Assembly (NCBI GenBank): GCA_964535385.1
Contig: CAZHSY010000001.1
Span: forward strand, 29,007 to 93,006
Origin: an uncultured Candidatus Saccharibacteria bacterium
GTDB taxonomy: Bacteria; Patescibacteriota; Saccharimonadia; CAILAD01; GCA-016700035
Length of the DNA stretch: 64,000 nucleotides
Direction of reading: 5' to 3'
In this document: positions 30,763 through 64,000 of the stretch, piece after piece
Layout of the letters: each line of letters starts with the position of its first letter
How positions within the stretch are numbered: the stretch's first letter is position 1
Notes under the pieces: generated by a model
Databases searched by the model: none
Seen by the model: only the letters and a program-made list of their open reading frames with translations
Told to the model about the DNA's origin: nothing
Translations under genes and position numbers: made by a program

Positions 30763-31005
30763 TCAGGAGGCAGGAAGCGGCGCCGCTCGATACGGCGCGC
30801 CGGCCGGCCGAGCTGGCCGAGCCGTCTGCGTGGTGGTCTCGCCACTAGCCGCGACGGCCGGATTGGCCTCCAGCCACTTGTAGCCCCGCGACAGATCACC
30901 GTTGCCGTGCTTGGCCATGATCTGAGCGTCGGTCAGCCCCTCGTCACGCCACTGCGTGATCTGCTGTGCGATCTCTCGATCGCTCTTCTTCTTGCCAATG
31001 GCCAT
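30763..31005 (-). CDS. small hypothetical protein (high-GC)
   Basis: Probable start MAIGKKKSDREIAQQITQWRDEGLTDAQIMAKHG... A terminator hairpin lies at 30722-30748. Overlaps the 3' end of the next gene. Confidence 0.3.
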   Translation of the reverse strand: MAIGKKKSDREIAQQITQWRDEGLTDAQIMAKHGNGDLSRGYKWLEANPAVAASGETTTQTARPARPAGAPYRAAPLPAS

Positions 31006-51492: not shown

Positions 51493-51585
51493 GGAGAGGT
51501 ACCCAAGTGGCTGAAGGGGCTGGTTTGCTAAACCGGTAGGGGGGCGCAAGTTCCCGCGAGGGTTCGAATCCCTCCCTCTCCGCCA
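51493..51585 (+). tRNA. tRNA-Ser (anticodon GCT)
   Basis: GGAGAGGTACCCAAGTGG..CTGGT-TTGCTAA-ACCGG, a long variable arm, GGTTCGAATCCCTCC, and CCA encoded. Confidence 0.8.
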
Positions 51586-51842
51586 GATAAAATGGACATG
51601 GCCTTTAGGTCGTGTCCATTTTACTTTGCGATGAAAGGTGAATGAACCCTCGGGTTCGGTAATCAATTTGTGTAGAACTAGAGTAACTTTAGTTATCTTT
51701 GTCGAGCAGTGAAGATTATATCCTTCCGACTACGTCACAAGGAGCACTCCCCCCTCTCATATGTGCATGCTTGCACCTCAGGATAACTATGCTACAATAG
51801 GTGTAATTACGAACAAAAGCCATACAATACAGGAGGAGAAGA

Positions 51843-52133
51843 ATGAACAAACAATCGTTTCCCACCGGTACCCCGTTCCAGCAAAAAGTCTGGTCGGAGA
51901 TTGCCAAGATTCCTAGAGGCACTACTATTACATATACCGAATTAGCTATTAGGGTAGGGAAGCCAAGAGCCGTCCGAGCTGTGGCGTCGGCTTGTGGCAA
52001 AAATCCATTTATAGGTGAGATTCCCTGTCATCGCGTCATCGCCTCCGATGGCTCTCTCGGCGGCTACAGCGGGGAAGGGGGAGTGGCTCGCAAACGCCAG
52101 CTCCTCGTCGAAGAAGGCGCCATCTCGGCTTAG
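51843..52133 (+). CDS. methylated-DNA--protein-cysteine methyltransferase (Ogt/MGMT DNA-binding catalytic domain)
   Basis: 96 aa. Active site PCHRVI. An upstream promoter TTGCAC-16-TACAAT and an AGGAGGAG ribosome-binding site. Confidence 0.7.
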   Translation: MNKQSFPTGTPFQQKVWSEIAKIPRGTTITYTELAIRVGKPRAVRAVASACGKNPFIGEIPCHRVIASDGSLGGYSGEGGVARKRQLLVEEGAISA

Positions 52134-52194
52134 CCTCTCGAAAAATGCCTCGAAACCAGATATAATCAGCTGCGTTACTATCTCAATCAGACCT

Positions 52195-52287
<93 letters not shown>

Positions 52288-52393
52288 GAGAAGGCCCTGA
52301 TTTTATCAGGGTTTTGTCATCTGGCTAAGTTGTGAATTGAACCCATGGGGTTCGATAATCTCTTTACGATTATTTTGCTATCATAAAAACACC

Positions 52394-54349
52394 ATGCATC
52401 TCCCCCTCCAACCATATGGCTGGTTCGTAGCAGCACTCATGAGTACCGGTTTCATGGGCCTCTATACACTCGTTGTTTGGGCGGGTCTGAAGCACCTTAA
52501 AGTCGGCCTAAACCGAGGTGAAAACCTGGCTTTAAGCTTAGTAATTGGGATTTTAGCCTCTAGCTGGATTACCTTTGGTACCTGGTATGTTGCTGGCCAA
52601 GCTTGGGGGACAATGATCAGTTGGCTCATACCGCTCTGGATCATAGTCTGGCAGCGTGCCGCCATACTGAGGCTCACGGTCGACGCCTGGAAGGCGCTTA
52701 AACGCGTTTTGCGACACCCTCAACGCCTATGGTTATTGCGAGCTGGCTTTTGGGCTATCTTAACGCTTATAGCCGCCTGGATGTGCTACACGCACTTCTT
52801 ACAACCCTCCCCAGATGGCTGGCGCTCGGCTGGCAATACCTGGGCAGATCTAGCGCTTCATATGTCACTAGCCAGTCACTTTGTCGTTCAGGGCGTGCAC
52901 AACTTGATGCTTCCTGTCTTCCCGGCTGCAAAACTAACTTACCCCTTCCTGGTCGACCTTCAAGCGGCCCAGCTATACCAGACCGGCCATAGTTGGCAGG
53001 TTGCCTTTGGCTACACCTCTTGGCTACTGATCATGAGCAGCTGCTACCTCTTATACCGTATCGCCACCCGCATCACCGGCCGTAAGCTGGCCGGTATCAT
53101 TTGGGTTGTCCTAATCCTCTTGGCCGGTACAGCCGCTGGCGTAATACCGCTCTGGCGTGATCTTTTGAGTGGTAGCCTAGAAGCGACTAAAGATTACTCG
53201 CACCTAAGCGTTGGGGCAGCCGCCAGTCAAGAGCACTTTGCTAATCTCGTCACTTCGCATCTACTACCACAGCGCAGCTACCTGATGGGCTTGGCTGTTG
53301 CAAGTAGTTGTGTACTCCTCCTGCAAAGCTTTTTTGAGATCTTAAAGAATACAAAACTCCAACACTGGCTGGTGCTCGGTATCATTATCGGACTCCTCCC
53401 ACTGGCTCATGTCCATTCAGCTTTTGTCGCGGCCGGCCTGCTCGGTGGCGCCGCGATCTGGCTCAGTATTAAAAAACAGCCCCAAGCCCGCCTAGCATGG
53501 CTTGGGGTACTTATCGCTGGTGTAATTGCACTACCGCAGCTTATATGGCAGTTTGGTGGCAGTTTTCACGGCGGCTTCTCATATTGGCACCTTGGCTGGA
53601 TGACACCCGAGGGGGGGAGTACCTTGGTCTTCTGGTGGATTAATTGGGGACTCCTGCTTGTGTTTATTCCATTAGCCATCTGGCGGGCCAGTCGTCGGCA
53701 GTGGTCGCCTATTCTATGGTTACTCATTCTCGAAGCCGTCCTGATAATGATCGCCTGCAATCTCTACATCTTCCAGCCTAACCCCTGGGACAATATGAAG
53801 TTCATTACTTATGGCTATATTTGGTTGACGCTTCCAGTAGCTTGGCTCTTGGCAGACTTCACTCGACACGGATGGCCAGAGAAGATCCTCGTAGGAGTCA
53901 CCTTGCTCATCATCACAACGCCCGGCATGCAGTCCGTCTGGCTAGAGGGGACGCAAAACTACGTTTTTCTCAGTAATGGCGATCTGAAACTAGCTGACTA
54001 CGTGAGTCAAAACACCGCTCCGATCACCACGATACTGACCTCCGATCGACACAATCATCCAGTATCCACCCTGACTGGGCGGACGATTATTATGGGCTAC
54101 CGAGGCTGGCTGAGTAGTTATGGCATCAATTACGCATCAACCGAAAACGACTTAGATGCGATCTGGCTACAGGAAGAAACAACTGCTAATTTGATTAAAA
54201 AATACCAAGTTCAATACATCGTGCTCGACGACACCGAAGCCACCGAGAAGGGTGTCGATATTGAGAGACTCAACCAAACCTACTCTGAAATTTATTATCA
54301 AGACGGCTGGCATATCTGGGCGGTTGACCAAGTGGTCGGACAACGATAG
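52394..54349 (+). CDS. large polytopic membrane protein (possible GT-C-type glycosyltransferase)
   Basis: More than 12 hydrophobic helices. Likely start MHLPLQPYGW; the track start at 52337 lies inside a conserved intergenic palindrome. Confidence 0.45.
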   Translation: MHLPLQPYGWFVAALMSTGFMGLYTLVVWAGLKHLKVGLNRGENLALSLVIGILASSWITFGTWYVAGQAWGTMISWLIPLWIIVWQRAAILRLTVDAWKALKRVLRHPQRLWLLRAGFWAILTLIAAWMCYTHFLQPSPDGWRSAGNTWADLALHMSLASHFVVQGVHNLMLPVFPAAKLTYPFLVDLQAAQLYQTGHSWQVAFGYTSWLLIMSSCYLLYRIATRITGRKLAGIIWVVLILLAGTAAGVIPLWRDLLSGSLEATKDYSHLSVGAAASQEHFANLVTSHLLPQRSYLMGLAVASSCVLLLQSFFEILKNTKLQHWLVLGIIIGLLPLAHVHSAFVAAGLLGGAAIWLSIKKQPQARLAWLGVLIAGVIALPQLIWQFGGSFHGGFSYWHLGWMTPEGGSTLVFWWINWGLLLVFIPLAIWRASRRQWSPILWLLILEAVLIMIACNLYIFQPNPWDNMKFITYGYIWLTLPVAWLLADFTRHGWPEKILVGVTLLIITTPGMQSVWLEGTQNYVFLSNGDLKLADYVSQNTAPITTILTSDRHNHPVSTLTGRTIIMGYRGWLSSYGINYASTENDLDAIWLQEETTANLIKKYQVQYIVLDDTEATEKGVDIERLNQTYSEIYYQDGWHIWAVDQVVGQR

Positions 54350-54372
54350 CCTAAGATAAAGAGGGAGAAGAT

Positions 54373-54696
54373 ATGCGCAAACACGTTAATGGCTTTATAG
54401 AATTCATCCGCGAACAGGGCGTGGTTGGCTTGGCAATTGGTTTTATCCTTGGAGCAGCAGTAGCAAAGGTTGTCTCGTCTTTGGTCTCGGATATTATTAA
54501 TCCACTGATTGGACTCTTGCTTGGCAGTACTTCTGGCCTGAAAGAAGTCAGTGTGGCTGTGGGTGGAGCCAAACTAATGGTGGGTAATTTTCTAAGTGTC
54601 TTGCTTGATTTTGCCATTGTAGCTGGCGTCATCTATCTGATCGTTAAGGTCTTGCGGCTCGACCGTCTCGACCGGAAGAAAGATGACAAAAAATAA
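54373..54696 (+). CDS. mscL: large-conductance mechanosensitive channel
   Basis: 107 aa (MRKHVNGFIEFIREQGVVGLAIGFILGAA...), two TM helices, and a charged C-terminus. Confidence 0.85.
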   Translation: MRKHVNGFIEFIREQGVVGLAIGFILGAAVAKVVSSLVSDIINPLIGLLLGSTSGLKEVSVAVGGAKLMVGNFLSVLLDFAIVAGVIYLIVKVLRLDRLDRKKDDKK

Positions 54697-54758
54697 TCAC
54701 CAGATAAGAACGCGGGCGTAGATTTTTTCCGTAAGCTGAAGCATAATAGTGCTAGATT

Positions 54759-55490
54759 ATGCCTCCAGCCACACCCCAGCCAAATAGCGTGATGCCACCG
54801 ACACCGGAGGTGCCGGCTGGTGGAGTAGTTCAGCCGGATCTCGGTCAACCACCTGTAATTAATCCCGCACCAGCACCGGTTTTTGGAACCCCACTCGAGC
54901 AAATACCAATTACAAGTCCTAGTACTCCACCAACCTTTGGTGCTCAATCCAATGACCCAACGCTAGTCTCAGAAAACTCAGAACAGAGTGGTGAACCCGA
55001 ACAAACGGAAGCGGCACCCGATGATAGTACCGCACCACTCTTAGCTTGGGAAAATCAGCCAGCCAGCCAAGGCGCTCATCGGCCAACTATCTGGTACGTG
55101 ATTCTGGGGATTATTTTTGCCGGCAGTATTATCGCCGCCATTCTGACTCGCGCTTGGCTATTTATTCCTCTGGGGATACTCGTACCCTGGGCCTTAGCTA
55201 TGTATGCTGGGCGAGGCGAGGCCAGTCATCGTTATGCCCTGTATCCAGGCGGTATCGAGATCGATGACAAATTTACACCCTACGATACCTATAAAGCCTA
55301 TTTTTATGTACACGAAGATGGGCGATCGGTCTTCGAGCTCATTCCTACCCAGCGTCTGGGAGCTCTCGTAACCCTGCTGGCATCGCCGAACAATGTCGAT
55401 GATATCGATGATATCCTCAGTAGTGTTTTGCCAGAGACTGAACCACAGGGCAATGTTGGCGAATCAGTTTTCAAACGCTTGAAGTTCTAA
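54759..55490 (+). CDS. proline-rich membrane protein, hypothetical
   Basis: 243 aa. Pro-rich N-terminus followed by two TM helices. Confidence 0.45.
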   Translation: MPPATPQPNSVMPPTPEVPAGGVVQPDLGQPPVINPAPAPVFGTPLEQIPITSPSTPPTFGAQSNDPTLVSENSEQSGEPEQTEAAPDDSTAPLLAWENQPASQGAHRPTIWYVILGIIFAGSIIAAILTRAWLFIPLGILVPWALAMYAGRGEASHRYALYPGGIEIDDKFTPYDTYKAYFYVHEDGRSVFELIPTQRLGALVTLLASPNNVDDIDDILSSVLPETEPQGNVGESVFKRLKF

Positions 55491-55647
55491 CCTTTACGAC
55501 TCCACTGAAATACTGTAGAATAACCTCTGCTTTTGCACCTTCGATTCCAAAACAACCAATGGAGCGCTTGATTACTCAAACCATCTGTTTTTTTCAAAAT
55601 GGAGTAATGCAAAATGATTGGTTGTTTTGAAATTAAAAACTAGATGT

Positions 55648-55690
55648 GGGCTCGTAGCTCAGCTGGATGTTTCGCTTTAGCGAATTACAG
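55648..55690 (+). pseudogene. truncated tRNA 5' fragment (tandem partial duplicate of downstream tRNA-Arg with its upstream spacer)
   Basis: aaattaaaaactagatgtg-GGCTCGTAGCTCAGCTGGAT then diverges. The same leader plus 5' half recurs at 55747-55786 before the intact tRNA. Confidence 0.4.
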
Positions 55691-55765
55691 AAGGCAACGC
55701 ACTATCCTTACCGCGAGGAAGAGAAGAACTACGAAAGATGCCACAAAAATTAAAAAACTAGATGT

Positions 55766-55842
55766 GCGCTCGTAGCTCAGCTGGATAGAGCGCCAGTTTG
55801 CGGTACTGGAGGTCGCAGGTTCAAATCCTGCCGAGCGCACCA
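55766..55842 (+). tRNA. tRNA-Arg (anticodon read as GCG)
   Basis: GCGCTCG-TA-GCTCAGCTGGATAGAGC-G-CCAGT-TTGCGGT-ACTGG-AGGTC-GCAGGTTCAAATCCTGC-CGAGCGC-ACCA. Confidence 0.75.
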
Positions 55843-56370
55843 TTGACTAGAAGCTAGGGTTTAGAATTTAGGAGTTAGAAAATAGTTCTGATTTTGTCGT
55901 CACACTGGTTTCCAAGCCCTAGCCTCTAACTCAATTTGTCTTGTGTATTCGAGGAGAGGTACTGTCCTCGCTCGATCGCACCAGAGAAATCTGGTATAGT
56001 CAGGCAAGCATGCGTGTACCACCAGGGAAGTGGCCTCACAACCCACGAAAGTGTAAGCAGACAATAAAGATCGGTTACCGCCTTTATTGTCAGGTAGAGA
56101 AGCTTCACTGCACGCGTACTTCGTCGCTGCCACGTCCACCATACCTGCCGGGCTACAGACCCACGCGGACAGACGTGGCTAGTTCGCACCTTTAAAAGAT
56201 CTGGGTAACCAGATGTATGCTTGAGATACATATCCACTCTGCGGAGTAGTTGCCCGCCAGCAGTGGAGAGAGGCTTAAGTCTACCTTGATCAATCTCGCC
56301 CAAGGGTACAAGAGGTTGGTTAAAATGACTAGGGATAGGTGGCACTCAAGAACCATTTATCCTGTCCACG

Positions 56371-56428
56371 GACTGTAGCTTAAGGCAAAACGCCTACGGA
56401 GATAAAGGTTCGATTCCTTTCAGTCCGA
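56371..56428 (+). other. tRNA-like minihelix (acceptor stem plus T-arm, no anticodon/D arms)
   Basis: GGACTGT...AAAGG-TTCGATT-CCTTT-CAGTCC. A canonical T-loop with a 6-7 bp acceptor pairing and only a short internal hairpin (AGGC-aaaac-GCCT). Confidence 0.3.
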
Positions 56429-56482
56429 CGATCACGAGAGAGCTCGGTGTCGCCAACGCCACGTTAAGAGTAATCACGTGAC

Positions 56483-56557
56483 GAGGGGGTAAGCTCAAGT
56501 TGGTAGAGCACCCCGCCACGGCGGGGAGGTATGCTGGTTCGAATCCAGCCCCCTTCA
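56483..56557 (+). tRNA. tRNA-like gene with atypical 6-nt anticodon loop (possibly Arg-ACG)
   Basis: GAGGGGG-TA-AGCTCAAGTTGGTAGAGC-A-CCCCG-CCACGG-CGGGG-AGGTAT-GCTGGTTCGAATCCAGC-CCCCTTC-A. The D and T arms are good. The anticodon arm is 1 nt short, and no CCA is encoded. Confidence 0.4.
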
Positions 56558-56744
56558 CGATCGTTCCTTCTTCTGGTGAGCGCCAGAAGAGCTTTGTCGA
56601 CAAGACAAAAACCGGCCTGAGAGAGTACTCTCTCAGGCCGGTACTTCTTTCTTATTTAGAAAATCAGTTTTTATCATTGCGAAAAAAATATCGCTTGCGC
56701 TATAGTAGATTCAATACTTAGGATAATTAAAGGAAATTTTCAGC

Positions 56745-57491
56745 ATGCCGCCCAAGAAAGCACCGACAGAATCAGTAAAGGCTCAAGCAGCCAGTCCTGC
56801 AGGTGCGACTGCACTTATGCTTGACTACCCTGGAGCCTTTGGTCTATTCAAATCCAGTAAAGAAGCCATGGTACGCATTTTCGGTACCATAGTTTTGCTC
56901 TACCTCATCATACTAGCCATTGATATTGTCACCAGCATTATCACTGGTGTTATTGGGCTCGACAACTCAATACGCTCATTGATTTATAATATTATTAGCG
57001 GCGGCATTCAGATCGTTGCGATACCGATGTGGACCTACATTATGCTGCGCTCAGTCTACGGTTATAGGGAGACTGTTGGGACTGCCCTTGAGTATGCGAG
57101 GCCAAATATCCTTCGGTTCTTTCTAGCTAGTCTACTAGCGGGCCTAGCTATGGTTGGTGGGCTACTTCTCTTCATTATCCCGGGCATTATCTTCGCGATG
57201 CGCTTCTCAATGACTAATTATATTCTGGTTGATAACCCAGAGCTGGACGCCGTAGAAGCCATGCGCCGAAGCTGGCGCATGACCAAGGGTAATCTTAGTA
57301 AAATCTGGGGGATCGTCGGTGTAACTGTTCTCATGTTCATTCCTGTCATTACAATCATTGGGATTATCCCAGCTATCATTCTGCTCTACTTCTACGCCGC
57401 CGCCGGTACTATTCTCTACACCTATCTCAAGCAGCAGCCTGTCGAGCCTATAGCAGCCCCAACTCCTCAACCAGCCGTAGCCGCGAAATAG
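56745..57491 (+). CDS. polytopic membrane protein, hypothetical
   Basis: 248 aa with about six TM helices and a short Pro/Ala C-terminal tail. Confidence 0.5.
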   Translation: MPPKKAPTESVKAQAASPAGATALMLDYPGAFGLFKSSKEAMVRIFGTIVLLYLIILAIDIVTSIITGVIGLDNSIRSLIYNIISGGIQIVAIPMWTYIMLRSVYGYRETVGTALEYARPNILRFFLASLLAGLAMVGGLLLFIIPGIIFAMRFSMTNYILVDNPELDAVEAMRRSWRMTKGNLSKIWGIVGVTVLMFIPVITIIGIIPAIILLYFYAAAGTILYTYLKQQPVEPIAAPTPQPAVAAK

Positions 57492-57583
57492 CGACTAGTA
57501 ATTAGGGGCTAGAAGTTAGAAATTAGTAACTTTATCAGATATACTATCTCCTATCGTCTAGTTTCTAACTTCTAAGTTATTGC

Positions 57584-57660
57584 GCGCCCGTAGCTCAGCT
57601 GGATAGAGCGTTGGTTTCCGGTACCAAAGGTCGGGAGTTCGAATCTCTTCGGGCGCACCA
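57584..57660 (+). tRNA. tRNA-Arg (anticodon CCG)
   Basis: GCGCCCG-TA-GCTCAGCTGGATAGAGC-G-TTGGT-TTCCGGT-ACCAA-AGGTC-GGGAGTTCGAATCTCTT-CGGGCGC-ACCA. Confidence 0.85.
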
Positions 57661-57661
57661 C

Positions 57662-57753
<92 letters not shown>

Positions 57754-58064: not shown

Positions 58065-58724
58065 TTATTTCTTAGCCAGTGCGGCCGCATAGAGCGCGCC
58101 ACTACCGGCTGCCTTCAGAACCCTTGCGCACTCTGTGAAAGTCGCACCAGTTGTCACGACATCGTCAATTAATAAGATCCGCTGACCCTGCAATAAAGCT
58201 TCATTTTTGACTTGAAAATTACCTTGGATTTGCTTCCAGCGCTGCGTCCGACCGGCCCCGACTTGCGGAGTGTGAATATCACGCACCAGTAGCTGATGGC
58301 AGGGAATGGATAATAATTGAGCCAACTCACGAGCGACGAGCTGTGGCGCCACATAGCCCCGCTCACGCCGTCTGGTGGGCGTATCAGGCACAAACGTAAT
58401 CATATCGACCTTCGGCAGCTCAGCTTGAGCCAACTCATAGGAGACTGCCTTGGTGATATCCTCACGACCACTATATTTCACGCCATACACAACCTCCTCG
58501 CTAAACTCATCTAGTCGCCAGTGTGTAATAACCCGCCGCAGGGGAGTGCGCCACTGGCAGCGTGTACAGACTTTATCCTGAAGCGTCCGAGCATTACAGA
58601 GATAACAGCTACTTGTGCGTACGTGTAAATGGTCGACGCGACAACGGCGACACAAACCTGAGCCCTCCATATCGCAAAGTACGCAGCGATCGGGAGCGAG
58701 TAATCGAGCCAGTAATCTGAGCAA
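58065..58724 (-). CDS. comFC: ComF-family phosphoribosyltransferase (competence protein ComFC-like)
   Basis: 219 aa. N-terminal double Cys ribbon (CVLCDMEGSGLCRRC). PRTase motif ILLIDDVVTTGATF. Confidence 0.75.
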   Translation of the reverse strand: MLRLLARLLAPDRCVLCDMEGSGLCRRCRVDHLHVRTSSCYLCNARTLQDKVCTRCQWRTPLRRVITHWRLDEFSEEVVYGVKYSGREDITKAVSYELAQAELPKVDMITFVPDTPTRRRERGYVAPQLVARELAQLLSIPCHQLLVRDIHTPQVGAGRTQRWKQIQGNFQVKNEALLQGQRILLIDDVVTTGATFTECARVLKAAGSGALYAAALAKK

Positions 58725-58801: not shown

Positions 58802-59239
58802 ATGACTCGACGGAATAATCCCGAAGAAGAGATCCTGCAAGACGAATTTCTCGATGAAGCCGCCAACACGTCAGATGACTGGATGGGGGGAGAGGAGTTT
58901 GAAGGGCAGCTTGCAGTAGATGTTTACCAGACCAAAGATTCGGTCGTGGTAAAGGCCCCTATCGCTGGTGTATTACCAGAAGATATTGATATCGCAATCA
59001 GCGAAGATGTGATGACCATCCGTGGTGATCGCAAAGAAGAAGAAGTGATCGAGAAGGAGCACTACTACGTACAGGAATGTTTCTGGGGGAGCTTTAGTCG
59101 CTCGATCATCCTGCCAACCTCAACTATTGCTGAGAAGGCTCAGGCTACCCTAAAGCATGGTGTGCTCATTGTCCGTGTGCCAAAGGTTGTCCAAGAAGAC
59201 AGAATCAAAAAGATCAAGGTTAAGCCAATCGCAAGTTAG
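58802..59239 (+). CDS. Hsp20/alpha-crystallin small heat-shock protein
   Basis: 145 aa. Alpha-crystallin domain (AVDVYQTKDSVVVKAPIAGV...GVLIVRVPK). Confidence 0.85.
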   Translation: MTRRNNPEEEILQDEFLDEAANTSDDWMGGEEFEGQLAVDVYQTKDSVVVKAPIAGVLPEDIDIAISEDVMTIRGDRKEEEVIEKEHYYVQECFWGSFSRSIILPTSTIAEKAQATLKHGVLIVRVPKVVQEDRIKKIKVKPIAS

Positions 59240-59281: not shown

Positions 59282-59346
59282 CTGTTGTATTGTCCAGATC
59301 AGGTTACATCAACTCATTTTATACACCATTTGATTTAGCATGTATG

Positions 59347-59367
59347 CATGTATACAATGTATACATG
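59347..59367. promoter_or_regulatory. perfect palindromic operator overlapping antitoxin start
   Basis: CATGTATACA-a-TGTATACATG, 10-bp arms. The ATG of the antitoxin lies in the right arm. Confidence 0.5.
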
Positions 59368-59628
59368 CAGAAGATTCAATATACAATCCGTAATATTCCA
59401 CCGGCAGTTGATCAGATTATTCGCAAGCGCTCGCAGCAGAGCGGTGAGTCTTTTAATCAGACTGTGGTAGATCTACTCACATTGCAAACCATTGGTACGA
59501 CAAAGCCTGTCGCCCAGGAAGGTTTTGAGTGGTTATTTGGCGCCAATACCCTAGATGAATCATTTGATAGAGCGATTAAGGATATATCAAGAATCGATGA
59601 GAAAATGTGGCGCGAAATTCAACCATGA
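59365..59628 (+). CDS. putative antitoxin (VapB-like DNA-binding protein)
   Basis: About 87 aa from MQKIQYTIRNIPPAVDQIIRKRSQQSGESFNQTVVDLL. The stop overlaps the PIN gene start (ATGA). Confidence 0.5.
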   Translation: MQKIQYTIRNIPPAVDQIIRKRSQQSGESFNQTVVDLLTLQTIGTTKPVAQEGFEWLFGANTLDESFDRAIKDISRIDEKMWREIQP

Positions 59629-60026
59629 AAATTACTCTTGATACCAGCGCCTATTCGGGTTTCAATCGCGGAGACAAGCGCTTACAACGCTTCTTTACTA
59701 TCAAAAATCAAATCCTTATCCCTATTATTACTATTGCTGAGTTAAGAGCTGGCTTCGCGCTCGGTGCAAGGGCTTCAGAGAATGAAGCCTTATTACAAAG
59801 ACTTTTAGATGCTCCAAATGTTTCTGTTTTCACAATCACCGATCAGACTACTAGGCTATTTGCGACTATTTTTTCTCAACTCAAGCAAGCTGGTACGCCA
59901 ATTAATACGAATGATATCTGGATAGCCGCCCTAACAATTGAGCATCAGGCTACACTTGTGACACTTGATTCTGATTTTCAACGTGTGCCAGGTCTAAAGC
60001 TTGCAAAGCTTTCACAAGCTTACTGA
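59625..60026 (+). CDS. vapC: PIN-domain toxin (VapC-like)
   Basis: MKITLDTSAY...IWIAALTIEHQATLVTLDSDFQRV. Conserved acidic residues of the PIN fold are present. Confidence 0.65.
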   Translation: MKITLDTSAYSGFNRGDKRLQRFFTIKNQILIPIITIAELRAGFALGARASENEALLQRLLDAPNVSVFTITDQTTRLFATIFSQLKQAGTPINTNDIWIAALTIEHQATLVTLDSDFQRVPGLKLAKLSQAY

Positions 60027-60047: not shown

Positions 60048-60115
60048 CCCCCGGTAAAGGGGGTGCGTTCCCGCTTCCAAGGCCTGGCCTGCGCGCAGGC
60101 CAGGCCTTGGAAGAT
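60048..60115. terminator. two adjacent GC-rich hairpins (bidirectional terminator region)
   Basis: GAACGCACCCCC-ggtaaa-GGGGGTGCGTTC and CTTCCAAGGCCTGGCCTGCGC/GCGCAGGCCAGGCCTTGGAAG. Confidence 0.55.
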
Positions 60116-60119
60116 GTGG

Positions 60120-61472
60120 CTACTTAACAGGGTATTGGGCGATAGTATTGCTAGCTCGAGTCTCGGCTTGGCGCACGGCTGGCTGTGGATCCAGCCCTGA
60201 GAGAACACTAATGGTGGCATCTGAGAAATAGTTATTCATCTCCTGATCATTGCCCTTATAGAAAATTTGCGAGGAGATGATTTGGCCTACAAACGGGCCG
60301 AAAATGGCGTTTGATTTCTGCGCCTCAACCAAGTCCTTGCGGCTGGTAGGGATGTGGTGAGCTTCATTAAAGCGCTGCTGCTGATCGCGAGTAGCGGCAA
60401 AGCGCAAGAAGTCCCAAGCATATTCGGAGTGGGCCGACTTACTACCCACACTCTCGACCCAGAACTGAGCTAGATTAATAGCCGCCTGACCATCAACCTG
60501 GGGCATGGTGGATGTTTTGTACTTGAGGCTGGGATTCAGGGTAGCAAGCGTTGAGGCTGTTTCTGGATAGTTAATCATAAAGGCTGCCTTACCGGCTGCA
60601 AACGCCTGAATATCGCTCCCTAGTGCGTCCTGATAGCTGTAGTTGGCCTTGGCTGGCTCGGCGAAGCTAGCATAGAAGTCCATAGCCTTCGCACCCACCG
60701 CCACACCAGCAACATCGTTCTGAGCAAACAGCGCCCGGGTTGGCGGATCGTCAGTCAGCTGAGCACCATTCTGAAGTATCAGCAGAGCTTCGATGTCAGT
60801 AGCGCGCGTAATATTTGTGGTACCGAGAGCAGCGCCAGACTGAGTAATGGTCGCGCCAGTTTTCTGAGTGAGTTTGCGACTCGCGGCTACGAACTGGGTC
60901 CAGTTCTTCGGCACCTCAACGCCAGCGGCTTGCAAGAGACTTGGATTATAAAAAAGTCCGAGGGTTGATGCGCCGTACGATACGCCTTTGATCTGACCAT
61001 TTGTAATGAGATTCTTGGCGACAACATCGGCGAACACCTCACGATAGGTCGCTTCTGAGTACACCGTACTCGGTGCTGCACCGAGGTAGCTTCGGTAGCG
61101 GGGGAGCCAGTCACTATTCACTGAGAACATATCCGGTAACGTACCGGCCTGAGCGGCTTGGGTTAACTGAGCTTGATACTGAGCTAGGTCGATCGTCTGG
61201 AGCTGAATGGTGACCATCGGATGAAGCTTTTTAAAATCAGCAATCGTAGCCTCGAGCGCACTATCGGCGCTACCCACACGCCAATACTGAAGCGTCACCG
61301 GCTTATCACCGTAGACTACTTGGCTCTTACTGTCAGCTGGCTCAATTAAGCCAGAGAGGGGATTATTCTGCCAGGGGCGGAATGAGAACCACAACAGCAA
61401 AGCTGCTACCAGTAATAGCCCAGCCGCCAAGCTAAGAATAAAATATTGTTTGAAATAAGCTCTAAACTTCAT
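60120..61472 (-). CDS. ABC transporter substrate-binding protein (sugar-type, family 1)
   Basis: 450 aa. N-terminal TM/signal anchor. Architecture of extracellular solute-binding protein family 1. Confidence 0.7.
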   Translation of the reverse strand: MKFRAYFKQYFILSLAAGLLLVAALLLWFSFRPWQNNPLSGLIEPADSKSQVVYGDKPVTLQYWRVGSADSALEATIADFKKLHPMVTIQLQTIDLAQYQAQLTQAAQAGTLPDMFSVNSDWLPRYRSYLGAAPSTVYSEATYREVFADVVAKNLITNGQIKGVSYGASTLGLFYNPSLLQAAGVEVPKNWTQFVAASRKLTQKTGATITQSGAALGTTNITRATDIEALLILQNGAQLTDDPPTRALFAQNDVAGVAVGAKAMDFYASFAEPAKANYSYQDALGSDIQAFAAGKAAFMINYPETASTLATLNPSLKYKTSTMPQVDGQAAINLAQFWVESVGSKSAHSEYAWDFLRFAATRDQQQRFNEAHHIPTSRKDLVEAQKSNAIFGPFVGQIISSQIFYKGNDQEMNNYFSDATISVLSGLDPQPAVRQAETRASNTIAQYPVK

Positions 61473-61578
61473 ATAGTCGTAAAAATAACTCCAGCGCTAA
61501 AAAGTAGCAAAAGCAAGTGTAAGCTACCAGACATAGCCACTATTGTAACAAACCCAGGTCATTACGCTTGCTGAAGTG

Positions 61579-61953
61579 TCAAAACTGTTTGAGGACGAAA
61601 TTAACAATCGCGTAGGCCAGGAGGGCTACAATGACACCGACGACGGCGTAGAGGATGGTGTCCTTAGCAGCCGTGGTATTCTTGGGGTCACCACCAGATA
61701 GAACGTAGCGTAAGCCACCGATCACGATCATAATCACTGCTACTGCACCAATTATGAAGAGCAGAAGATTAACGATCTTACCAATTGCAATCGGTACCGT
61801 AGTAGGGGAGCTACCACAGCTGACACCAGCGCCGACCGCATCACCACCGCTAGGATTGCCGCAAGCCGCCCGAGCTGTCGGCATAGTCAAACCAATGCCG
61901 AGAAAGATAGGGGTAAGCACAAAGGCTCGAGTCAGGAGGTAGCGTATTTTCAT
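61579..61953 (-). CDS. small secreted two-TM pilin-like protein (TrbC/VirB2-type T4SS pilin family, paralog 1)
   Basis: 124 aa. Signal peptide, and a conserved C-terminal block IGGLRYVLSGGDPKNTTAAKDTILYAVVGVIVALLAYAIVNF shared by all four tandem genes. Confidence 0.55.
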   Translation of the reverse strand: MKIRYLLTRAFVLTPIFLGIGLTMPTARAACGNPSGGDAVGAGVSCGSSPTTVPIAIGKIVNLLLFIIGAVAVIMIVIGGLRYVLSGGDPKNTTAAKDTILYAVVGVIVALLAYAIVNFVLKQF

Positions 61954-62039
61954 CTCTTGTATTGTAACAAGATTGGAGGCGGAACGAAAACAAAAACTCC
62001 TGTCTCTTCGACAGGAGTTTTTAGTCTCACAAAGGTTTC

Positions 62040-62435
62040 CTAGGTGCCTGACGATGCCCCGAATTGCCCGAGAATGAAGTTCACGATCGCGTAGGCCAGG
62101 AGAGCCACTACGATACCAACCACAGCGTAGAGGATGGTGTCCTTGGCGGCCGTGGTGTTGGTCGAGTTACCACCCGAGAAGACATAGCGGAAGCCACCAA
62201 CTACCAACATAATCACCGCCACAGTACCAATAGCGAAGAGCATGGTATTAGTAATGATTTTAATGTTAGCAACAAGGTCGCCGGACTGATTATTTCCCTG
62301 TGCAGCACCAGCACCACCACTAATACTCGTCGTATCCTGAGCAGCGTGTGCGGTACCAACCAAAGCGGTTGCTACCACTGCATTACCAGCCAAGGCGAGG
62401 CCACCTTTCTTAAGTAAGTCTTTGGCTTGACTCAT
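62040..62435 (-). CDS. pilin-like protein, paralog 2
   Basis: 131 aa. Same C-terminal block (VGGFRYVFSGGNSTNTTAAKDTILYAVVGIVVALLAYAIVNF). Confidence 0.55.
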   Translation of the reverse strand: MSQAKDLLKKGGLALAGNAVVATALVGTAHAAQDTTSISGGAGAAQGNNQSGDLVANIKIITNTMLFAIGTVAVIMLVVGGFRYVFSGGNSTNTTAAKDTILYAVVGIVVALLAYAIVNFILGQFGASSGT

Positions 62436-62607
62436 AATTACATTTTTCTCCTTATAATTGCTTATTATACCGCGCTAAAGCGCTTTTGCCATTACATTTT
62501 AGATGATTTTTTCAAAATGGTAGTGCTTATATGCAAAATAAGTCAGCCTCCACCTGGTCTAAGCCTGATCGGAGTGCCGAACAAACTAGTTATTTCCAAA
62601 CGACTTA

Positions 62608-63135
62608 TTAGCCCTTTAAGACACCAACCAGGAAGTTCACGATAGCCGAGCCCATGATCGCCACTCCGAGGCCAATTGCCGCATACATGATGGCATCCTT
62701 GGCCGTCTTAGCCTTGCCCGGATCACCAGCAGAAGTCGCATACATGATGCCACCAACGACGATCACTATGACAGCCGAGGCGCCAATCACCCACATAAAA
62801 AGGCCTAAGCCGGTATTAATCATACCTTGTAAGCTTGATTGGTTTTGCGCCACCGGCATGACGAAATCCACAATCGACCGAGCTAGGATAACGATACCAA
62901 ACCCAACCGCCGTATAGATGATGGAGTTCAGCGCCAGCTTCGTGCGGTCTGGCCGTCCAGCTGAGATGATGTAGAGGAAGCCCGAAGCCACCATCATAAT
63001 CACCGTTATAACCCCGGCTGCGTACATGGCGTAGTTAAAGATATTGTTGACTATTACCGCAGGATTATTAGATATGGTCGGTAGTACACCCGGGGCTGAG
63101 GGGAGACCGTCCGCAATATATGTAAGTCCTCTCAT
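62608..63135 (-). CDS. pilin-like protein, paralog 3 (internally duplicated, two pilin-like repeats)
   Basis: 175 aa. Two consecutive hydrophobic-pair modules (…SAGRPDRTKLALNSIIYTAVGFGIVILARSIVDF and …SAGDPGKAKTAKDAIMYAAIGLGVAIMGSAIVNF). Confidence 0.55.
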   Translation of the reverse strand: MRGLTYIADGLPSAPGVLPTISNNPAVIVNNIFNYAMYAAGVITVIMMVASGFLYIISAGRPDRTKLALNSIIYTAVGFGIVILARSIVDFVMPVAQNQSSLQGMINTGLGLFMWVIGASAVIVIVVGGIMYATSAGDPGKAKTAKDAIMYAAIGLGVAIMGSAIVNFLVGVLKG

Positions 63136-63977
63136 GATGCCCCCAGTATCTGCTTGACGATATTAAATATCAAACCAGCGGCCAGCACACCAAGGAAGCC
63201 AATCAGGCCGTAGGTGATCGTCTTGCGGGCACCCTGAATCTTTTGGGGGTTACCCGTAGCAGTGACCATCTGGATACCTCCAAAGATCACCATGAAGACG
63301 GCCAGGGCGCCGGCTGTAAATTGGATGTAATTAACAACAGCCATAATAATGTCGAATACGGTTTTCTTAGCGAAGCCACCCTGGATATCGACACCAAGAA
63401 AAGTACCACTCGTAACTCCAATTAAGCCCAAAATCAGTCGACCTGAAGCGAACAAGGCAATACTTGAAACCGCTAAAACAATTCGCCGTTTACCGGCCTT
63501 AAGGCCTTCCGGCGACCCGCCAGCTGTCATGACCTGCAGGAAGCCAACGGATATCATAATTGTCAAAATAATAGTCGCTAAGGAGAGAATATAGTTTGAT
63601 AGATTCTGGACTATCACTTGAATGGCATTGCCAGAACTGCCAGGCGGACAGAGTGTCTCGCGAACGAAGCCACCAGCACTAATATCTGAACTTAGCTCAT
63701 CGCAACTGCCTGCGTAGTGGCCTTGATTTTTAGGATTGCCAATTATAGGGCCGGAATTACCGGACTCACTACCACATCCGCCGTTAGTACCTGAATTTTG
63801 ACAGTATTGACCCAATGCATCCGCCTGAACTACTGGCGCCGACGGTAGTAATGCCCCAGTCATTAAAACCGCCAACGAAACGACTAGAATAATGTAACTG
63901 ACTATTTTTAGTACTTTCATTACCCTCATTATAAGCATGTTTGCTATACTTTGGATATCAAATGCGCAGTCAACCAA
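63132..63977 (-). CDS. pilin-like protein, paralog 4 (extended N-terminal domain)
   Basis: 281 aa. Signal peptide, a Gly/Ser/Cys-rich extracellular region, then two modules ending in ...TATGNPQKIQGARKTITYGLIGFLGVLAAGLIFNIV. Confidence 0.5.
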   Translation of the reverse strand: MVDCAFDIQSIANMLIMRVMKVLKIVSYIILVVSLAVLMTGALLPSAPVVQADALGQYCQNSGTNGGCGSESGNSGPIIGNPKNQGHYAGSCDELSSDISAGGFVRETLCPPGSSGNAIQVIVQNLSNYILSLATIILTIMISVGFLQVMTAGGSPEGLKAGKRRIVLAVSSIALFASGRLILGLIGVTSGTFLGVDIQGGFAKKTVFDIIMAVVNYIQFTAGALAVFMVIFGGIQMVTATGNPQKIQGARKTITYGLIGFLGVLAAGLIFNIVKQILGAS

Positions 63978-64000
63978 ATCATGTGGTATTAAAGCAGTTA

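What the first reader, a model, noticed from the sequence alone, without database searches (positions are those of the whole stretch)
61579..63977. Four tandem paralogous pilin-like genes, one internally duplicated
All four minus-strand genes encode signal peptide, a variable region, and a near-identical C-terminal module (RYV(L/F)SGG(D/N)..AAKDTILYAVVG..ALLAYAIVNF) with two hydrophobic helices. This is the architecture of VirB2/TrbC-type secretion pilins. Gene 62608..63135 carries two modules, and 63132..63977 has a long Cys/Gly-rich extension. Tandem diversification of a surface filament subunit suggests host-interaction or antigenic variation.
Basis: partly seen in the sequence, partly recalled or inferred. 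Interest (0 to 1): 0.5.

Follow-up and report, generated by a model that had tools for sequence, protein, structure and literature searches.

The report
Saccharibacterial type IV secretion pilin array
These four neighbouring genes encode six copies of the small pilin-like building block of the type IV secretion machine that ultrasmall parasitic Saccharibacteria need to live on their host bacteria; such pilin gene arrays were already described in 2023-2025, so this is a new example of a known feature.

Summary
Four minus-strand genes (61579-63977) all pass Pfam's cutoff for T4SS_pilin (PF18895).

- Two genes, not one, carry two modules, so there are six modules in four genes.
- Only g1 and g2 have similar modules (68% identity); the other pairs are 18-42% identical.
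- g3 has no signal peptide.

A contig 100% identical to the window end shows a divergent operon starting at 63962: VirB6-like, PrgI/VirB3-like, TrsD-like, VirB4 ATPase and a large cell-wall hydrolase. This is the chromosomal type IV secretion locus of a Saccharibacterium (Patescibacteria/CPR).

Published work already covers such loci. One survey found 441 VirB2-like arrays in Patescibacteria. In Southlakia epibionticum ML1 all six pilin genes are individually essential by Tn-seq.

The antigenic-variation idea is not supported:
- The same array occurs in the same order in other species.
- Each gene is far closer to its orthologue than to its paralogues.
- I found no sign of gene conversion or phase variation.

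The likeliest reading is a fixed set of non-redundant subunits that build a host-directed tube. That assembly is inferred, not shown.

By-products: adjacent modules are fused or split between lineages, and the family includes proteins with up to 17 concatenated modules.

The parts
61579..61953 (-). g1: single-module T4SS pilin-like protein (124 aa). It has a signal-peptide-like N-terminus, a conserved Cys-X14-Cys loop at the predicted mature N-terminus, then the helical hairpin.
   Evidence: PF18895 at 52.9 bits, and PF04956 TrbC at 21.6 bits (below cutoff). The AF2 hairpin is H53-85/H90-123 with pLDDT about 80. Orthologues in L005-L008 are 57-68% identical and keep the Cys pair.
61991..62023 (-). 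Intrinsic-terminator-like hairpin (14-bp stem followed by a T run) just after g2.
   Evidence: Terminator scan. RNA fold gives -26.5 kcal/mol, z -4.2, with 0 of 200 shuffles folding as well. It is not conserved in L005/L006, where the g2-g1 gap is only 16-32 nt.
62040..62435 (-). g2: single-module pilin-like protein (131 aa) with no Cys. It is the most conserved of the four and the candidate major subunit (inference).
   Evidence: PF18895 at 37.4 bits. Orthologues are 67-72% identical. Its module is the reciprocal best hit in 9 of 9 other Saccharibacteria loci.
62448..62492 (-). Promoter-like site (ATGGCA, 17 nt spacer, TATAAT; 62492-62464) and Shine-Dalgarno AAGGAG (62453-62448) upstream of g2.
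   Evidence: Consensus scan and the sequence itself. This is a consensus match only, not proof of function.
62608..63135 (-). g3: two-module pilin-like protein (175 aa, four helices) without a signal peptide. Its start codon overlaps the g4 stop.
   Evidence: PF18895 at 79.6 bits in 2 stretches. The AF2 model has four long helices with pLDDT 67. A conserved family of 172-190 aa proteins exists in about 29 clusters at 90% identity; the few that carry a source name are called Candidatus Saccharibacteria or just 'bacterium'.
63132..63920 (-). g4: two-module pilin-like protein (262 aa from ATG 63920; alternative starts at 63929 or 63977). It has a signal peptide, a variable Gly/Ser/Pro-rich spacer and a conserved Cys pair before module a.
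   Evidence: PF18895 at 48.3 bits in 2 stretches. Gene calls of 262 and 265 aa come from public contigs. The orthologue alignment shows invariant C73/C91. Its first module matches the free-standing first gene in L014 and L019.
63962..64000 (+). First 13 codons of the divergently transcribed VirB6-like (TrbL_3) gene. It heads the operon VirB6-like, PrgI, TrsD-like, VirB4, cell-wall hydrolase, which continues beyond the window.
   Evidence: L001 is 100% identical to window 60084-64000 and extends 9135 nt further. The position follows from window = 73136 minus the L001 coordinate.

Best explanation
The four genes encode six VirB2-like helical-hairpin modules (Pfam T4SS_pilin). They are the pilin set of the chromosomal, monoderm-type (MPF-FATA-derived) type IV secretion system of a Saccharibacterium.

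**Shown**
- Family membership of all four genes.
- Direct adjacency to a VirB6-like, PrgI/VirB3-like, TrsD-like, VirB4 and hydrolase operon.
- A housekeeping chromosomal setting.
- Conservation of the same ordered gene set across species.

**Taken from the literature**
- The homologous locus, including each of its six pilin genes, is essential for epibiotic growth of S. epibionticum on its host. It lacks a relaxase and a coupling protein.

**Inferred mechanism**
1. Each module inserts into the membrane with its N-terminus out, the charged loop in the cytoplasm and its C-terminus out. The Sec pathway handles g1, g2 and g4. For g3 the short N-tail crosses without a signal peptide.
2. The VirB4 ATPase extracts the modules and stacks them on the VirB6-like platform. 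The resulting tube passes through a wall opened by the linked hydrolases and reaches the host cell.
3. The six modules are non-redundant, position-specific parts, not interchangeable variants.
4. g2 has its own promoter and terminator, is the most conserved and carries no decoration, so it is the likely bulk subunit.
5. g4 (with a disulfide-type loop and a variable spacer, encoded next to VirB6) and g1 (with a Cys loop) are likely base or tip specialists.
6. The covalent fusions in g3 and g4 tie together modules that sit next to each other in the assembly.
For: **Identity**
- PF18895 is passed by all four genes.
- A below-threshold TrbC/VirB2 match covers the hairpin. Many homologues carry precomputed PF04956 hits as well as PF18895.

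**Neighbours**
- Searches show the operon, including VirB4 at 374 bits above the NCBIfam cutoff.

**Chromosomal, not mobile**
- The 28 largest window ORFs scanned are housekeeping genes or have no Pfam match. None is a relaxase, coupling protein or integrase.
- The full synteny hydrolase-VirB4-TrsD-PrgI-VirB6 / pilins / solute-binding protein (SBP) holds in L005-L007.
- Eleven Saccharibacteria loci have arrays of 4-6 genes and 5-6 modules.
- dnaN or dnaA lies within 10 kb of virB4 in L012, L013, L014, L016, L017 and L019.

**Fixed set**
- Orthologue scores far exceed paralogue scores.
- All six modules are reciprocal best hits at the same position in L005 and L006. The g2 type is reciprocal best in 9 of 9 loci.

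**Non-redundancy**
- ML1 genes SEML1_0014-0019 are all PF18895 and all scored GD/ES/ES in Tn-seq (growth defect at the first time point, essential at the two later ones) (PMC10633639 Tables S1 and S2).
- The main text notes an essential pilin series and no coupling protein or relaxase.

**Fold**
- Helical hairpins were predicted.

**Fusion and fission**
- The g4 pair is split into two genes in L014 and L019. The g3 pair is fused only in this clade.

**Expression unit of g2**
-.

**Possible product**
- Cryo-ET of the Saccharimonadia parasite M. amalyticus shows a tube or 'lance' of unknown composition reaching into the host. It is 8.6-9.0 nm wide and 61-70 nm long, runs out from the inner membrane and has a barbed tip (PMC11880426).
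Against: - No filament made of these proteins has been seen in any patescibacterium.
- The thin filaments solved from M. amalyticus are unrelated Ig-fold Pam pilins, and that preprint does not mention a T4SS.
- PF04956 is not passed.
- A family profile finds no solved pilin by sequence.
- Foldseek gives no significant match. The archaeal conjugation pilus 8dfu and T-pilus VirB2 8exh appear only among generic helical hairpins at E > 1.
- The g3 model matched nothing meaningful.
- Position-specific roles, g2 as the major subunit and the link to the lance are inferences.
- The g2 terminator is not conserved in L005 or L006.
- Beyond the close clade, orthology of four of the six module types is ambiguous. 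The module tree has no bootstrap support.
Confidence: 0.72

Rival explanations
1. The paralogues are interchangeable variants. Alternative pilins would be expressed or mixed to evade recognition or to widen host range, as proposed for the virB2 families of Bartonella and Anaplasma. The first reader suggested this, and Quinonero-Coronel et al. raised it as a possibility.
For: - Pilins diverge faster than the machine. VirB4 is 86% identical between species, against 44-72% for the pilins.
- The exposed N-terminal segments are the most variable part.
- Copy number differs between lineages at 4-6 genes, and L008 has an extra copy.
- The published survey reports low identity within arrays and raises this idea (PMC12102498).
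Against: - The same ordered set of orthologues is kept across species.
- There is no gene-conversion signal at synonymous sites.
- There are no long repeats, invertible segments or simple-sequence tracts.
- All six ML1 pilin genes are individually essential, so they are not redundant.
- Covalent fusion of different modules fixes their ratio.
Confidence: 0.12
2. The modules never leave the membrane as a filament. They would form or line an in-membrane or wall-spanning channel or stalk of the T4SS, or act as assembly factors, with no extended pilus.
For: - No VirB2-type filament has been imaged in Patescibacteria.
- Proteins with 4 to 34 predicted membrane helices exist in this family: two-module g3 and g4, and concatenated proteins of up to 17 modules. 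These seem awkward to extract from the membrane one subunit at a time.
- g3 lacks a signal peptide.
Against: - The N-out/C-out topology allows neighbouring protomers to be linked on the outer surface of a tube (inference).
- A pCF10 preprint reports that the monoderm VirB2-like protein PrgF is essential for conjugation and is modelled as a pilus on VirB6 (10.64898/2025.12.18.695078).
- An unassigned tube 8.6-9 nm wide exists in a relative.
Confidence: 0.14
3. The genes encode the mating pilus of an integrated conjugative element that transfers DNA.
For: - VirB4 is closest to conjugative monoderm families: CD1110, and the Mycoplasma ICE VirB4.
- The modules resemble the Mycoplasma ICE pilin-like protein NF045849, with E-values of 1e-6 to 1e-17.
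Against: - The window and the 9 kb extension hold no relaxase, coupling protein or integrase.
- The locus is syntenic with housekeeping flanks across species and lies next to dnaA/dnaN in relatives.
- The literature finds relaxases in only 103 of 3,035 genomes.
- The distantly encoded coupling-protein homologue of ML1 is not essential, while the other T4SS genes are.
Confidence: 0.02

Closest known systems
Pilin array of the Southlakia epibionticum ML1 T4SS (SEML1_0014-0019; Wang et al. 2023, PMC10633639)
   Same: - Same phylum and class, and the same locus plan: hydrolases, VirB4, TrsD-like, PrgI, VirB6-like, then a divergent row of PF18895 genes.
- The downstream Hsp20, ComF-like and tRNA-Ser genes match window 58802-59239, 58065-58724 and 57662-57751.
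- Both have six pilin modules in total.
   Different: - ML1 has six separate genes (132, 185, 103, 126, 127 and 138 aa). Here two pairs are fused, giving four genes.
- ML1 has a second VirB6-like gene.
- ML1 lacks the solute-binding protein gene and the PIN/RHH pair found here.
- I could not align the ML1 sequences directly, because they were not retrievable with these tools.
VirB2-like arrays of Patescibacteria (Quinonero-Coronel et al. 2025, PMC12102498)
   Same: That survey found 441 arrays of 2-11 PF18895/PF04956 genes near virB4, most often in Saccharimonadia and Microgenomatia. They lie on the chromosome, often near dnaA, and usually without a relaxase. This locus fits that description.
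   Different: - In the passages I read or searched, the paper does not mention multi-module (fused) pilins or orthology of array positions between species. It favours a variation or host-range reading.
- It reports a maximum within-array identity of 54%. Here g1 and g2 reach 65% over 85 aa.
VirB2/TrbC/TraA conjugative pilins of Gram-negative T4SS (Pfam PF04956)
   Same: - Small proteins with a signal peptide and two hydrophobic helices joined by a short basic loop.
- Encoded beside VirB3, VirB4 and VirB6 homologues.
   Different: - The PF04956 cutoff is not reached.
- There is no detectable sequence link to solved pilins.
- The host is a monoderm with no outer-membrane complex.
- There are several obligatory paralogues and covalent two-module forms.
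PrgF of pCF10 and VirB2-like proteins of Gram-positive conjugative plasmids (ter Beek et al. preprint, 10.64898/2025.12.18.695078)
   Same: A monoderm MPF-FATA-type machine with a small two-helix protein encoded close to virB6. That protein is essential and is modelled as a pilus growing on a VirB6 pentamer.
   Different: - Those systems conjugate DNA.
- Only one candidate per plasmid modelled clearly as a pilus.
- I did not test homology between PrgF and these genes.
Mbov_0395-family pilin-like conjugal transfer protein of Mycoplasma ICEs (NCBIfam NF045849)
   Same: Every module matches this 80-residue model over nearly its full length, with E-values from 1.5e-6 to 6.6e-17.
   Different: Single modules score 25-28 bits against a cutoff of 40. 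g3 exceeds the cutoff only because two modules add up. The genes are related to this family but are not equivalogs.
virB2 paralogue families of Bartonella and Anaplasma
   Same: Several divergent virB2-like genes sit in tandem in a host-dependent bacterium.
   Different: Those families are held to be lineage-specific amplifications used for antigenic or host variation. Here the set is conserved by position across species, and its ML1 counterpart is non-redundant.

Membership tests
Pfam PF18895 T4SS_pilin | Whole-protein score at or above the gathering cutoff of 26.6 bits | tested here: met
   g1 52.9, g2 37.4, g3 79.6 (2 stretches) and g4 48.3 (2 stretches) bits.
Pfam PF04956 TrbC/VirB2 pilin | Whole-protein score at or above the gathering cutoff of 27.9 bits | tested here: not met
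   g1 scores 21.6 bits (E 2.5e-4) and g2 17.4 bits (E 5e-3). g3 and g4 have no listed hit. Many homologues carry a precomputed PF04956 hit alongside PF18895.
VirB2-like pilin (functional class) | Small protein with two hydrophobic helices joined by a short charged loop | tested here: met
   Hydropathy segments. AF2 helices H53-85/H90-123 in g1, and four helices in g3. The loops carry K/R, for example SGGDPKNTTAAKD.
VirB2-like pilin (functional class) | Cleavable N-terminal signal peptide | tested here: inconclusive
   By eye, g1, g2 and g4 have a basic n-region, a hydrophobic core and an AXA-type site. g3 has none. No signal-peptide predictor was available.
VirB2-like pilin (functional class) | Encoded in a cluster with VirB4 and VirB6/VirB3 homologues | tested here: met
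   The VirB6-like gene starts 41 nt from g4. PrgI, TrsD-like and VirB4 follow. The layout is the same in 10 other loci.
VirB2-like pilin (functional class) | Fold resembles solved conjugative pilins | tested here: inconclusive
   Foldseek against the PDB gave no hit with E <= 0.001. 8dfu (TM 0.62 on the target) and 8exh VirB2 (TM 0.45) appear among many generic hairpins. A hairpin fold is not discriminating.
VirB2-like pilin (functional class) | Polymerises into an extracellular tube (pilus), often with bound phospholipid | not testable with these tools
   This needs cryo-EM, cryo-ET or biochemistry. No multimer modelling was available.
Patescibacterial chromosomal T4SS (Quinonero-Coronel 2025) | VirB4 with TrsD, PrgI/VirB3 and VirB6 homologues nearby, and no relaxase in the cluster | tested here: met
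   for the components. No relaxase or coupling protein was found in the 9 kb extension or among the 28 window ORFs scanned. VirB4 is 74-95% identical to the best 120 of the many metagenomic homologues found; the few with a source name are called Saccharibacteria or just 'bacterium'. I did not do a VirB4 phylogeny.
Patescibacterial chromosomal T4SS (Quinonero-Coronel 2025) | Located close to the replication origin (dnaA/dnaN) | not tested
   The extension contig ends inside the hydrolase gene. In relatives L012, L014 and L019, dnaA lies about 10 kb beyond virB4.
NCBIfam NF045849 Mbov_0395 pilin-like conjugal transfer protein (equivalog) | Score at or above the cutoff of 40 bits | tested here: inconclusive
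   g1 27.8, g2 25.5 and g4 26.8 bits are below the cutoff. g3 reaches 61 bits only as the sum of two modules.
Antigenically variable pilin paralogue arrays (Bartonella/Anaplasma type) | Recent lineage-specific amplification with interchangeable, redundant copies | tested here: not met
   Orthologue scores far exceed paralogue scores. Positions are reciprocal best hits. There is no conversion or repeat signature. The ML1 copies are individually essential.

The most novel reading that the evidence does not exclude
The pilin set is not a family of variants. It would be a parts list for a heteromeric, short, host-piercing tube, and perhaps for the unassigned 9-nm 'lance' seen by cryo-ET in a related parasite.

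- Each of the five or six module types would hold a fixed position: adaptor on VirB6, shaft or tip.
- The gene fusions (two modules here, up to 17 elsewhere in the family) would record which protomers are neighbours.
- Covalently pre-linked pilin oligomers would be a mode of conjugative-type pilus assembly not described before.
Probability: 0.3. Interest if true: 0.7.

Novelty: new member of a known kind. Interest (0 to 1): 0.3.

Why it matters
The T4SS of Saccharibacteria is reported as the first T4SS essential for the bacterium that carries it. Its pilin series is the feature that sets it apart from other monoderm systems (PMC10633639, PMC12857230). What the pilins build, and what passes through it, is unknown.

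This locus adds no new kind of system. The comparison around it does sharpen the question in three ways:
- The paralogues form a conserved, ordered and apparently non-redundant set. That argues for a composite structure rather than surface variation.
- Natural fusions and splits of adjacent modules give testable predictions about which subunits touch each other.
- Proteins with many concatenated modules suggest that pre-linked pilin oligomers are a common design in this family.

Tried and rejected
- **Foldseek of the g3 model against the PDB**. It returned only generic helical bundles with E > 0.2, so it was uninformative.
- **Foldseek of the g1 model**. Nothing was significant. Two conjugative pilins appear among many hairpins, so I use this only as 'compatible'.
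- **Sequence and profile searches of the PDB**. They found no pilin, only chance matches to membrane helices.
- **Look-up of the contig for the L001-derived VirB4**. I reached relatives through the search for homologous proteins instead.
- **Bootstrapped neighbour-joining tree of 54 modules**. It timed out. I replaced it with a reciprocal-best-hit table. The earlier tree has no support values and is used only as an illustration.
- **Search for variation machinery**. I looked for direct and inverted repeats and tandem repeats in 61400-64000. The only finding was the g1/g2 paralogy at 77% over 173 nt.
- **Gene conversion between g1 and g2**. I rejected it: nucleotide identity is 68%, and codon identity at conserved residues is 0.62 within the genome against 0.33-0.59 between genomes.
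- **Mobile-element reading**. I rejected it after Pfam scans of 28 window ORFs found no relaxase, coupling protein or integrase.
- **'Internal duplication' of g3 and g4.** I rejected it as a recent event. The two halves are 32% and 21% identical, no closer than to modules in other genes. The g4 halves are separate genes in L014 and L019.
- **Pam pili**. I considered whether the 2026 CPR pilus preprint covers these genes. It does not; those are Ig-fold pilins.
- **hhalign against a hand-built VirB2 alignment.** I did not run it, because the Pfam TrbC model already gives that test.
Full report
**1. What is in the sequence**

| Gene | Coordinates | Length |
|---|---|---|
| g1 | 61579-61953 | 124 aa |
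| g2 | 62040-62435 | 131 aa |
| g3 | 62608-63135 | 175 aa |
| g4 | 63132-63977 | longest ORF 281 aa |

[quoted passage not shown] A profile built from the modules finds them in no other ORF of the window.

There are therefore six modules in four genes, not five. Each module is two hydrophobic helices joined by a short Lys/Arg-bearing loop. AlphaFold2 models give a hairpin for g1 (H53-85/H90-123, pLDDT about 80) and four long helices for g3 (pLDDT 67).

Several details in the finding need correcting.
- The quoted near-identical motif applies only to g1 and g2, whose modules are 68% identical. All other module pairs are 18-42% identical. That includes the two halves of g3 (32%) and of g4 (21%).
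- g3 has no signal peptide, and its ATG overlaps the g4 stop codon.
- g4 most likely starts at 63920 or 63929, as called on public contigs.
- In the g4 extension only one Cys pair is invariant among orthologues. The Gly/Ser/Pro-rich part varies in length or is absent.

**2. Surroundings**

A public contig (L001) is 100% identical to window 60084-64000 and continues 9.1 kb beyond the window end. A divergent operon begins 41 nt from g4, at window 63962 on the plus strand. It encodes the following proteins:

| Protein | Length | Evidence |
|---|---|---|
| VirB6-like | 787 aa | precomputed TrbL_3; PF04610 at E 4e-4 |
| PrgI family (VirB3-like) | 284 aa | PF12666, 52.6 bits |
| TrsD/TraC-like | 259 aa | precomputed PF26593; NCBIfam TrsD at E 0.005, far below its cutoff |
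| VirB4 ATPase | 619 aa | NCBIfam CD1110 family, 374 bits against a cutoff of 325 |
| Large cell-wall hydrolase | >1000 aa | precomputed VanY |

On the other side lie the following genes:
- a solute-binding protein (60120-61472);
- a PIN/RHH toxin-antitoxin pair;
- Hsp20;
- a ComF-like protein;
- tRNA genes.

The rest of the window is ordinary chromosome: ValRS, TsaD, FemAB, phosphoglucomutase, GroEL, PGI, a Mur ligase and LytR. None of the 28 ORFs scanned is a relaxase, coupling protein or integrase.

**3. Organism and relatives**

Homologues of g3 and of VirB4 come from uncultured Candidatus Saccharibacteria.

Three species-level relatives (L005, L006, L007) have the whole locus in the same order, including the downstream solute-binding protein. 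Identity to this genome is:

| Protein | Identity |
|---|---|
| VirB4 | 86% |
| TrsD-like | 74-78% |
| PrgI | 60-65% |
| VirB6-like | 40-54% |
| g4 | 44-50% |
| g3 | 52-54% |
| g2 | 71-72% |
| g1 | 58-68% |

Each pilin gene scores far higher to its positional orthologue (118-195 bits) than to any paralogue in its own or another genome (at most 104 bits). All six modules are reciprocal best hits at the same array position in L005 and L006.

Eleven Saccharibacteria loci were sampled in all. The arrays have 4-6 genes and 5-6 modules.
- The first two modules are fused in seven loci and split into two genes in L014 and L019.
- The g3 fusion is confined to the clade of the window.
- The g2-type module is the reciprocal best hit in 9 of 9 loci. 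The g4a type maps to the first module of the first gene in 8 of 9. The other types become ambiguous at that depth.

In several relatives dnaN or dnaA lies within 10 kb of virB4.

**4. What is already known**

This kind of locus has been published.
- Wang et al. 2023 (PMC10633639) described the S. epibionticum ML1 T4SS (SEML1_0006-0019). They noted a series of essential pilin genes, unusual for a monoderm system, and the lack of a coupling protein and relaxase.
- Their Table S1/S2 lists six PF18895 genes, SEML1_0014-0019. Each is scored as a growth defect at the first time point and essential at the two later ones. They are followed by Hsp20, ComF and tRNA-Ser, the same downstream genes as in this window.
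- Quinonero-Coronel et al. 2025 (PMC12102498) surveyed 3,035 genomes. They found 441 arrays of 2-11 VirB2-like genes, chiefly in Saccharimonadia and Microgenomatia. The arrays are usually chromosomal, relaxase-free and often near dnaA. The authors floated antigenic or host-range variation as an explanation.
- A 2025 review repeats that the ML1 array encodes six divergent VirB2-like pilins and speculates about a pilus-like conduit (PMC12857230).
- A 2025 preprint argues that monoderm conjugative systems also have an essential VirB2-like protein, PrgF.

**5. How it most likely works**

Shown here:
- family membership;
- adjacency to the T4SS core;
- the chromosomal housekeeping context;
- a conserved ordered set of orthologues.

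From the literature: the homologous pilins are individually essential for epibiotic growth.

Inferred mechanism:
1. The modules insert with the N-terminus out, the loop in and the C-terminus out.
2. They are lifted from the membrane by VirB4 onto the VirB6-like platform.
3. They form a tube through the wall towards the host.

This topology lets modules be chained by external linkers, which fits g3 and g4.

g2 has a promoter-like site, a strong Shine-Dalgarno sequence and a strong terminator hairpin of its own. It is also the most conserved pilin. I therefore propose it as the bulk subunit. The terminator is not conserved in L005 or L006, so this is weak.

g4 (encoded next to VirB6, with a conserved Cys pair and a variable spacer) and g1 (with a conserved Cys-X14-Cys loop) look like specialised subunits.

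A tube or 'lance' of unknown composition has been imaged in the Saccharimonadia parasite M. amalyticus (PMC11880426). It is 8.6-9.0 nm wide and 61-70 nm long. From my own knowledge, that width matches conjugative pili of the F type. The link to these genes is speculation.

**6. Rival readings**

- **Interchangeable variants for antigenic or host-range variation.** The faster evolution of the pilins and their exposed segments, and the variable copy number, speak for it. Positional orthology, the absence of gene conversion, the absence of repeats or invertible DNA, the essentiality of every ML1 copy and the covalent fusions all speak against it.
- **A membrane-resident channel without a filament.** This cannot be excluded, because no such filament has been seen. 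The filaments solved from M. amalyticus are unrelated Ig-fold pilins.
- **A conjugative element.** This is unlikely given the context.

**7. Membership**

- PF18895 is met.
- The classical TrbC/VirB2 model is not met, although there are below-threshold matches.
- The Mycoplasma ICE pilin-like equivalog is not met by single modules.
- No sequence link to solved pilins was found.
- The fold searches are compatible but not discriminating.

The genes are therefore members of the CPR T4SS_pilin family that probably work like VirB2. They are not demonstrated members of the TrbC/VirB2 family proper.

**8. By-product**

A profile of single-module pilins finds 74,792 cluster representatives at E <= 0.001. 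The top of that list is dominated by proteins with 2 to 17 modules. Their sequences show one signal peptide, then modules joined by short linkers. One six-module protein lies inside a pilin array and translates with the standard code. I found no description of this in the papers searched.

**9. Verdict**

The 'diversification / antigenic variation' gloss is not supported. The locus is a new member of a published kind of system, so interest is modest.

The useful additions are the positional orthology of the set, the fusion and fission of adjacent modules, and the multi-module pilins elsewhere in the family.

Noticed in passing
Protein ids P0179-P0325; L015 1777-3435: The T4SS_pilin family contains many proteins with 2-17 concatenated pilin modules, for example P0202 (1775 aa, 17 modules), P0197 (11 modules) and P0179 (6 modules). 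They have one signal peptide and short linkers between modules. P0179 sits inside an array of five pilin genes with 11 modules in total. I found no description of this in the papers searched.
   Followed up: partly
window 60120-61472 (-): A solute-binding protein gene (SBP_bac_1/SBP_bac_8) lies directly downstream of the pilin array here and in 8 of the 10 other Saccharibacteria loci sampled. It is absent in L013 and L018, and in S. epibionticum ML1. It may be functionally linked to the array or merely syntenic.
   Followed up: partly
window 59290-60026 (+): A PIN-domain toxin (PF01850, 58 bits) with an upstream weak RHH-type antitoxin sits between the solute-binding protein gene and Hsp20. 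In relatives such as L012, L016 and L019, Hsp20 follows the solute-binding protein gene directly, so this pair looks like a lineage-specific insertion.
   Followed up: partly
window 56483-56558 (+): ARAGORN reports a tRNA-like gene with an undetermined identity and a two-base 'anticodon (ac)', within a cluster of Ser and Arg tRNA genes (51493-57751).
   Followed up: no
L011 10786-15072: In a Candidatus Gracilibacteria contig, two single pilin genes are followed by a 1428-aa ORF whose N-terminus (aa 72-138) is a pilin module. It may be a pilin-anchored giant surface protein. The ORF was read with table 11, although Gracilibacteria recode UGA, so its extent is uncertain.
   Followed up: no
L009 7320-9026; L010 8638-10788: Candidatus Dojkabacteria contigs carry rows of 5-6 single-module pilin genes of 90-129 aa. 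Arrays of about six modules therefore recur outside Saccharibacteria.
   Followed up: partly
window 30944-32956, 37765-39534, 52337-54349, 29157-30656 (large ORFs): Several large ORFs of 499-670 aa have no Pfam match at E <= 1e-5. This is typical of CPR dark matter, and I did not examine them further.
   Followed up: no
L013 3718-8207; S. epibionticum SEML1_0011 and SEML1_0013: Some Saccharibacteria have two VirB6-like (TrbL_3) genes in the operon, where the window's genome has one.
   Followed up: no
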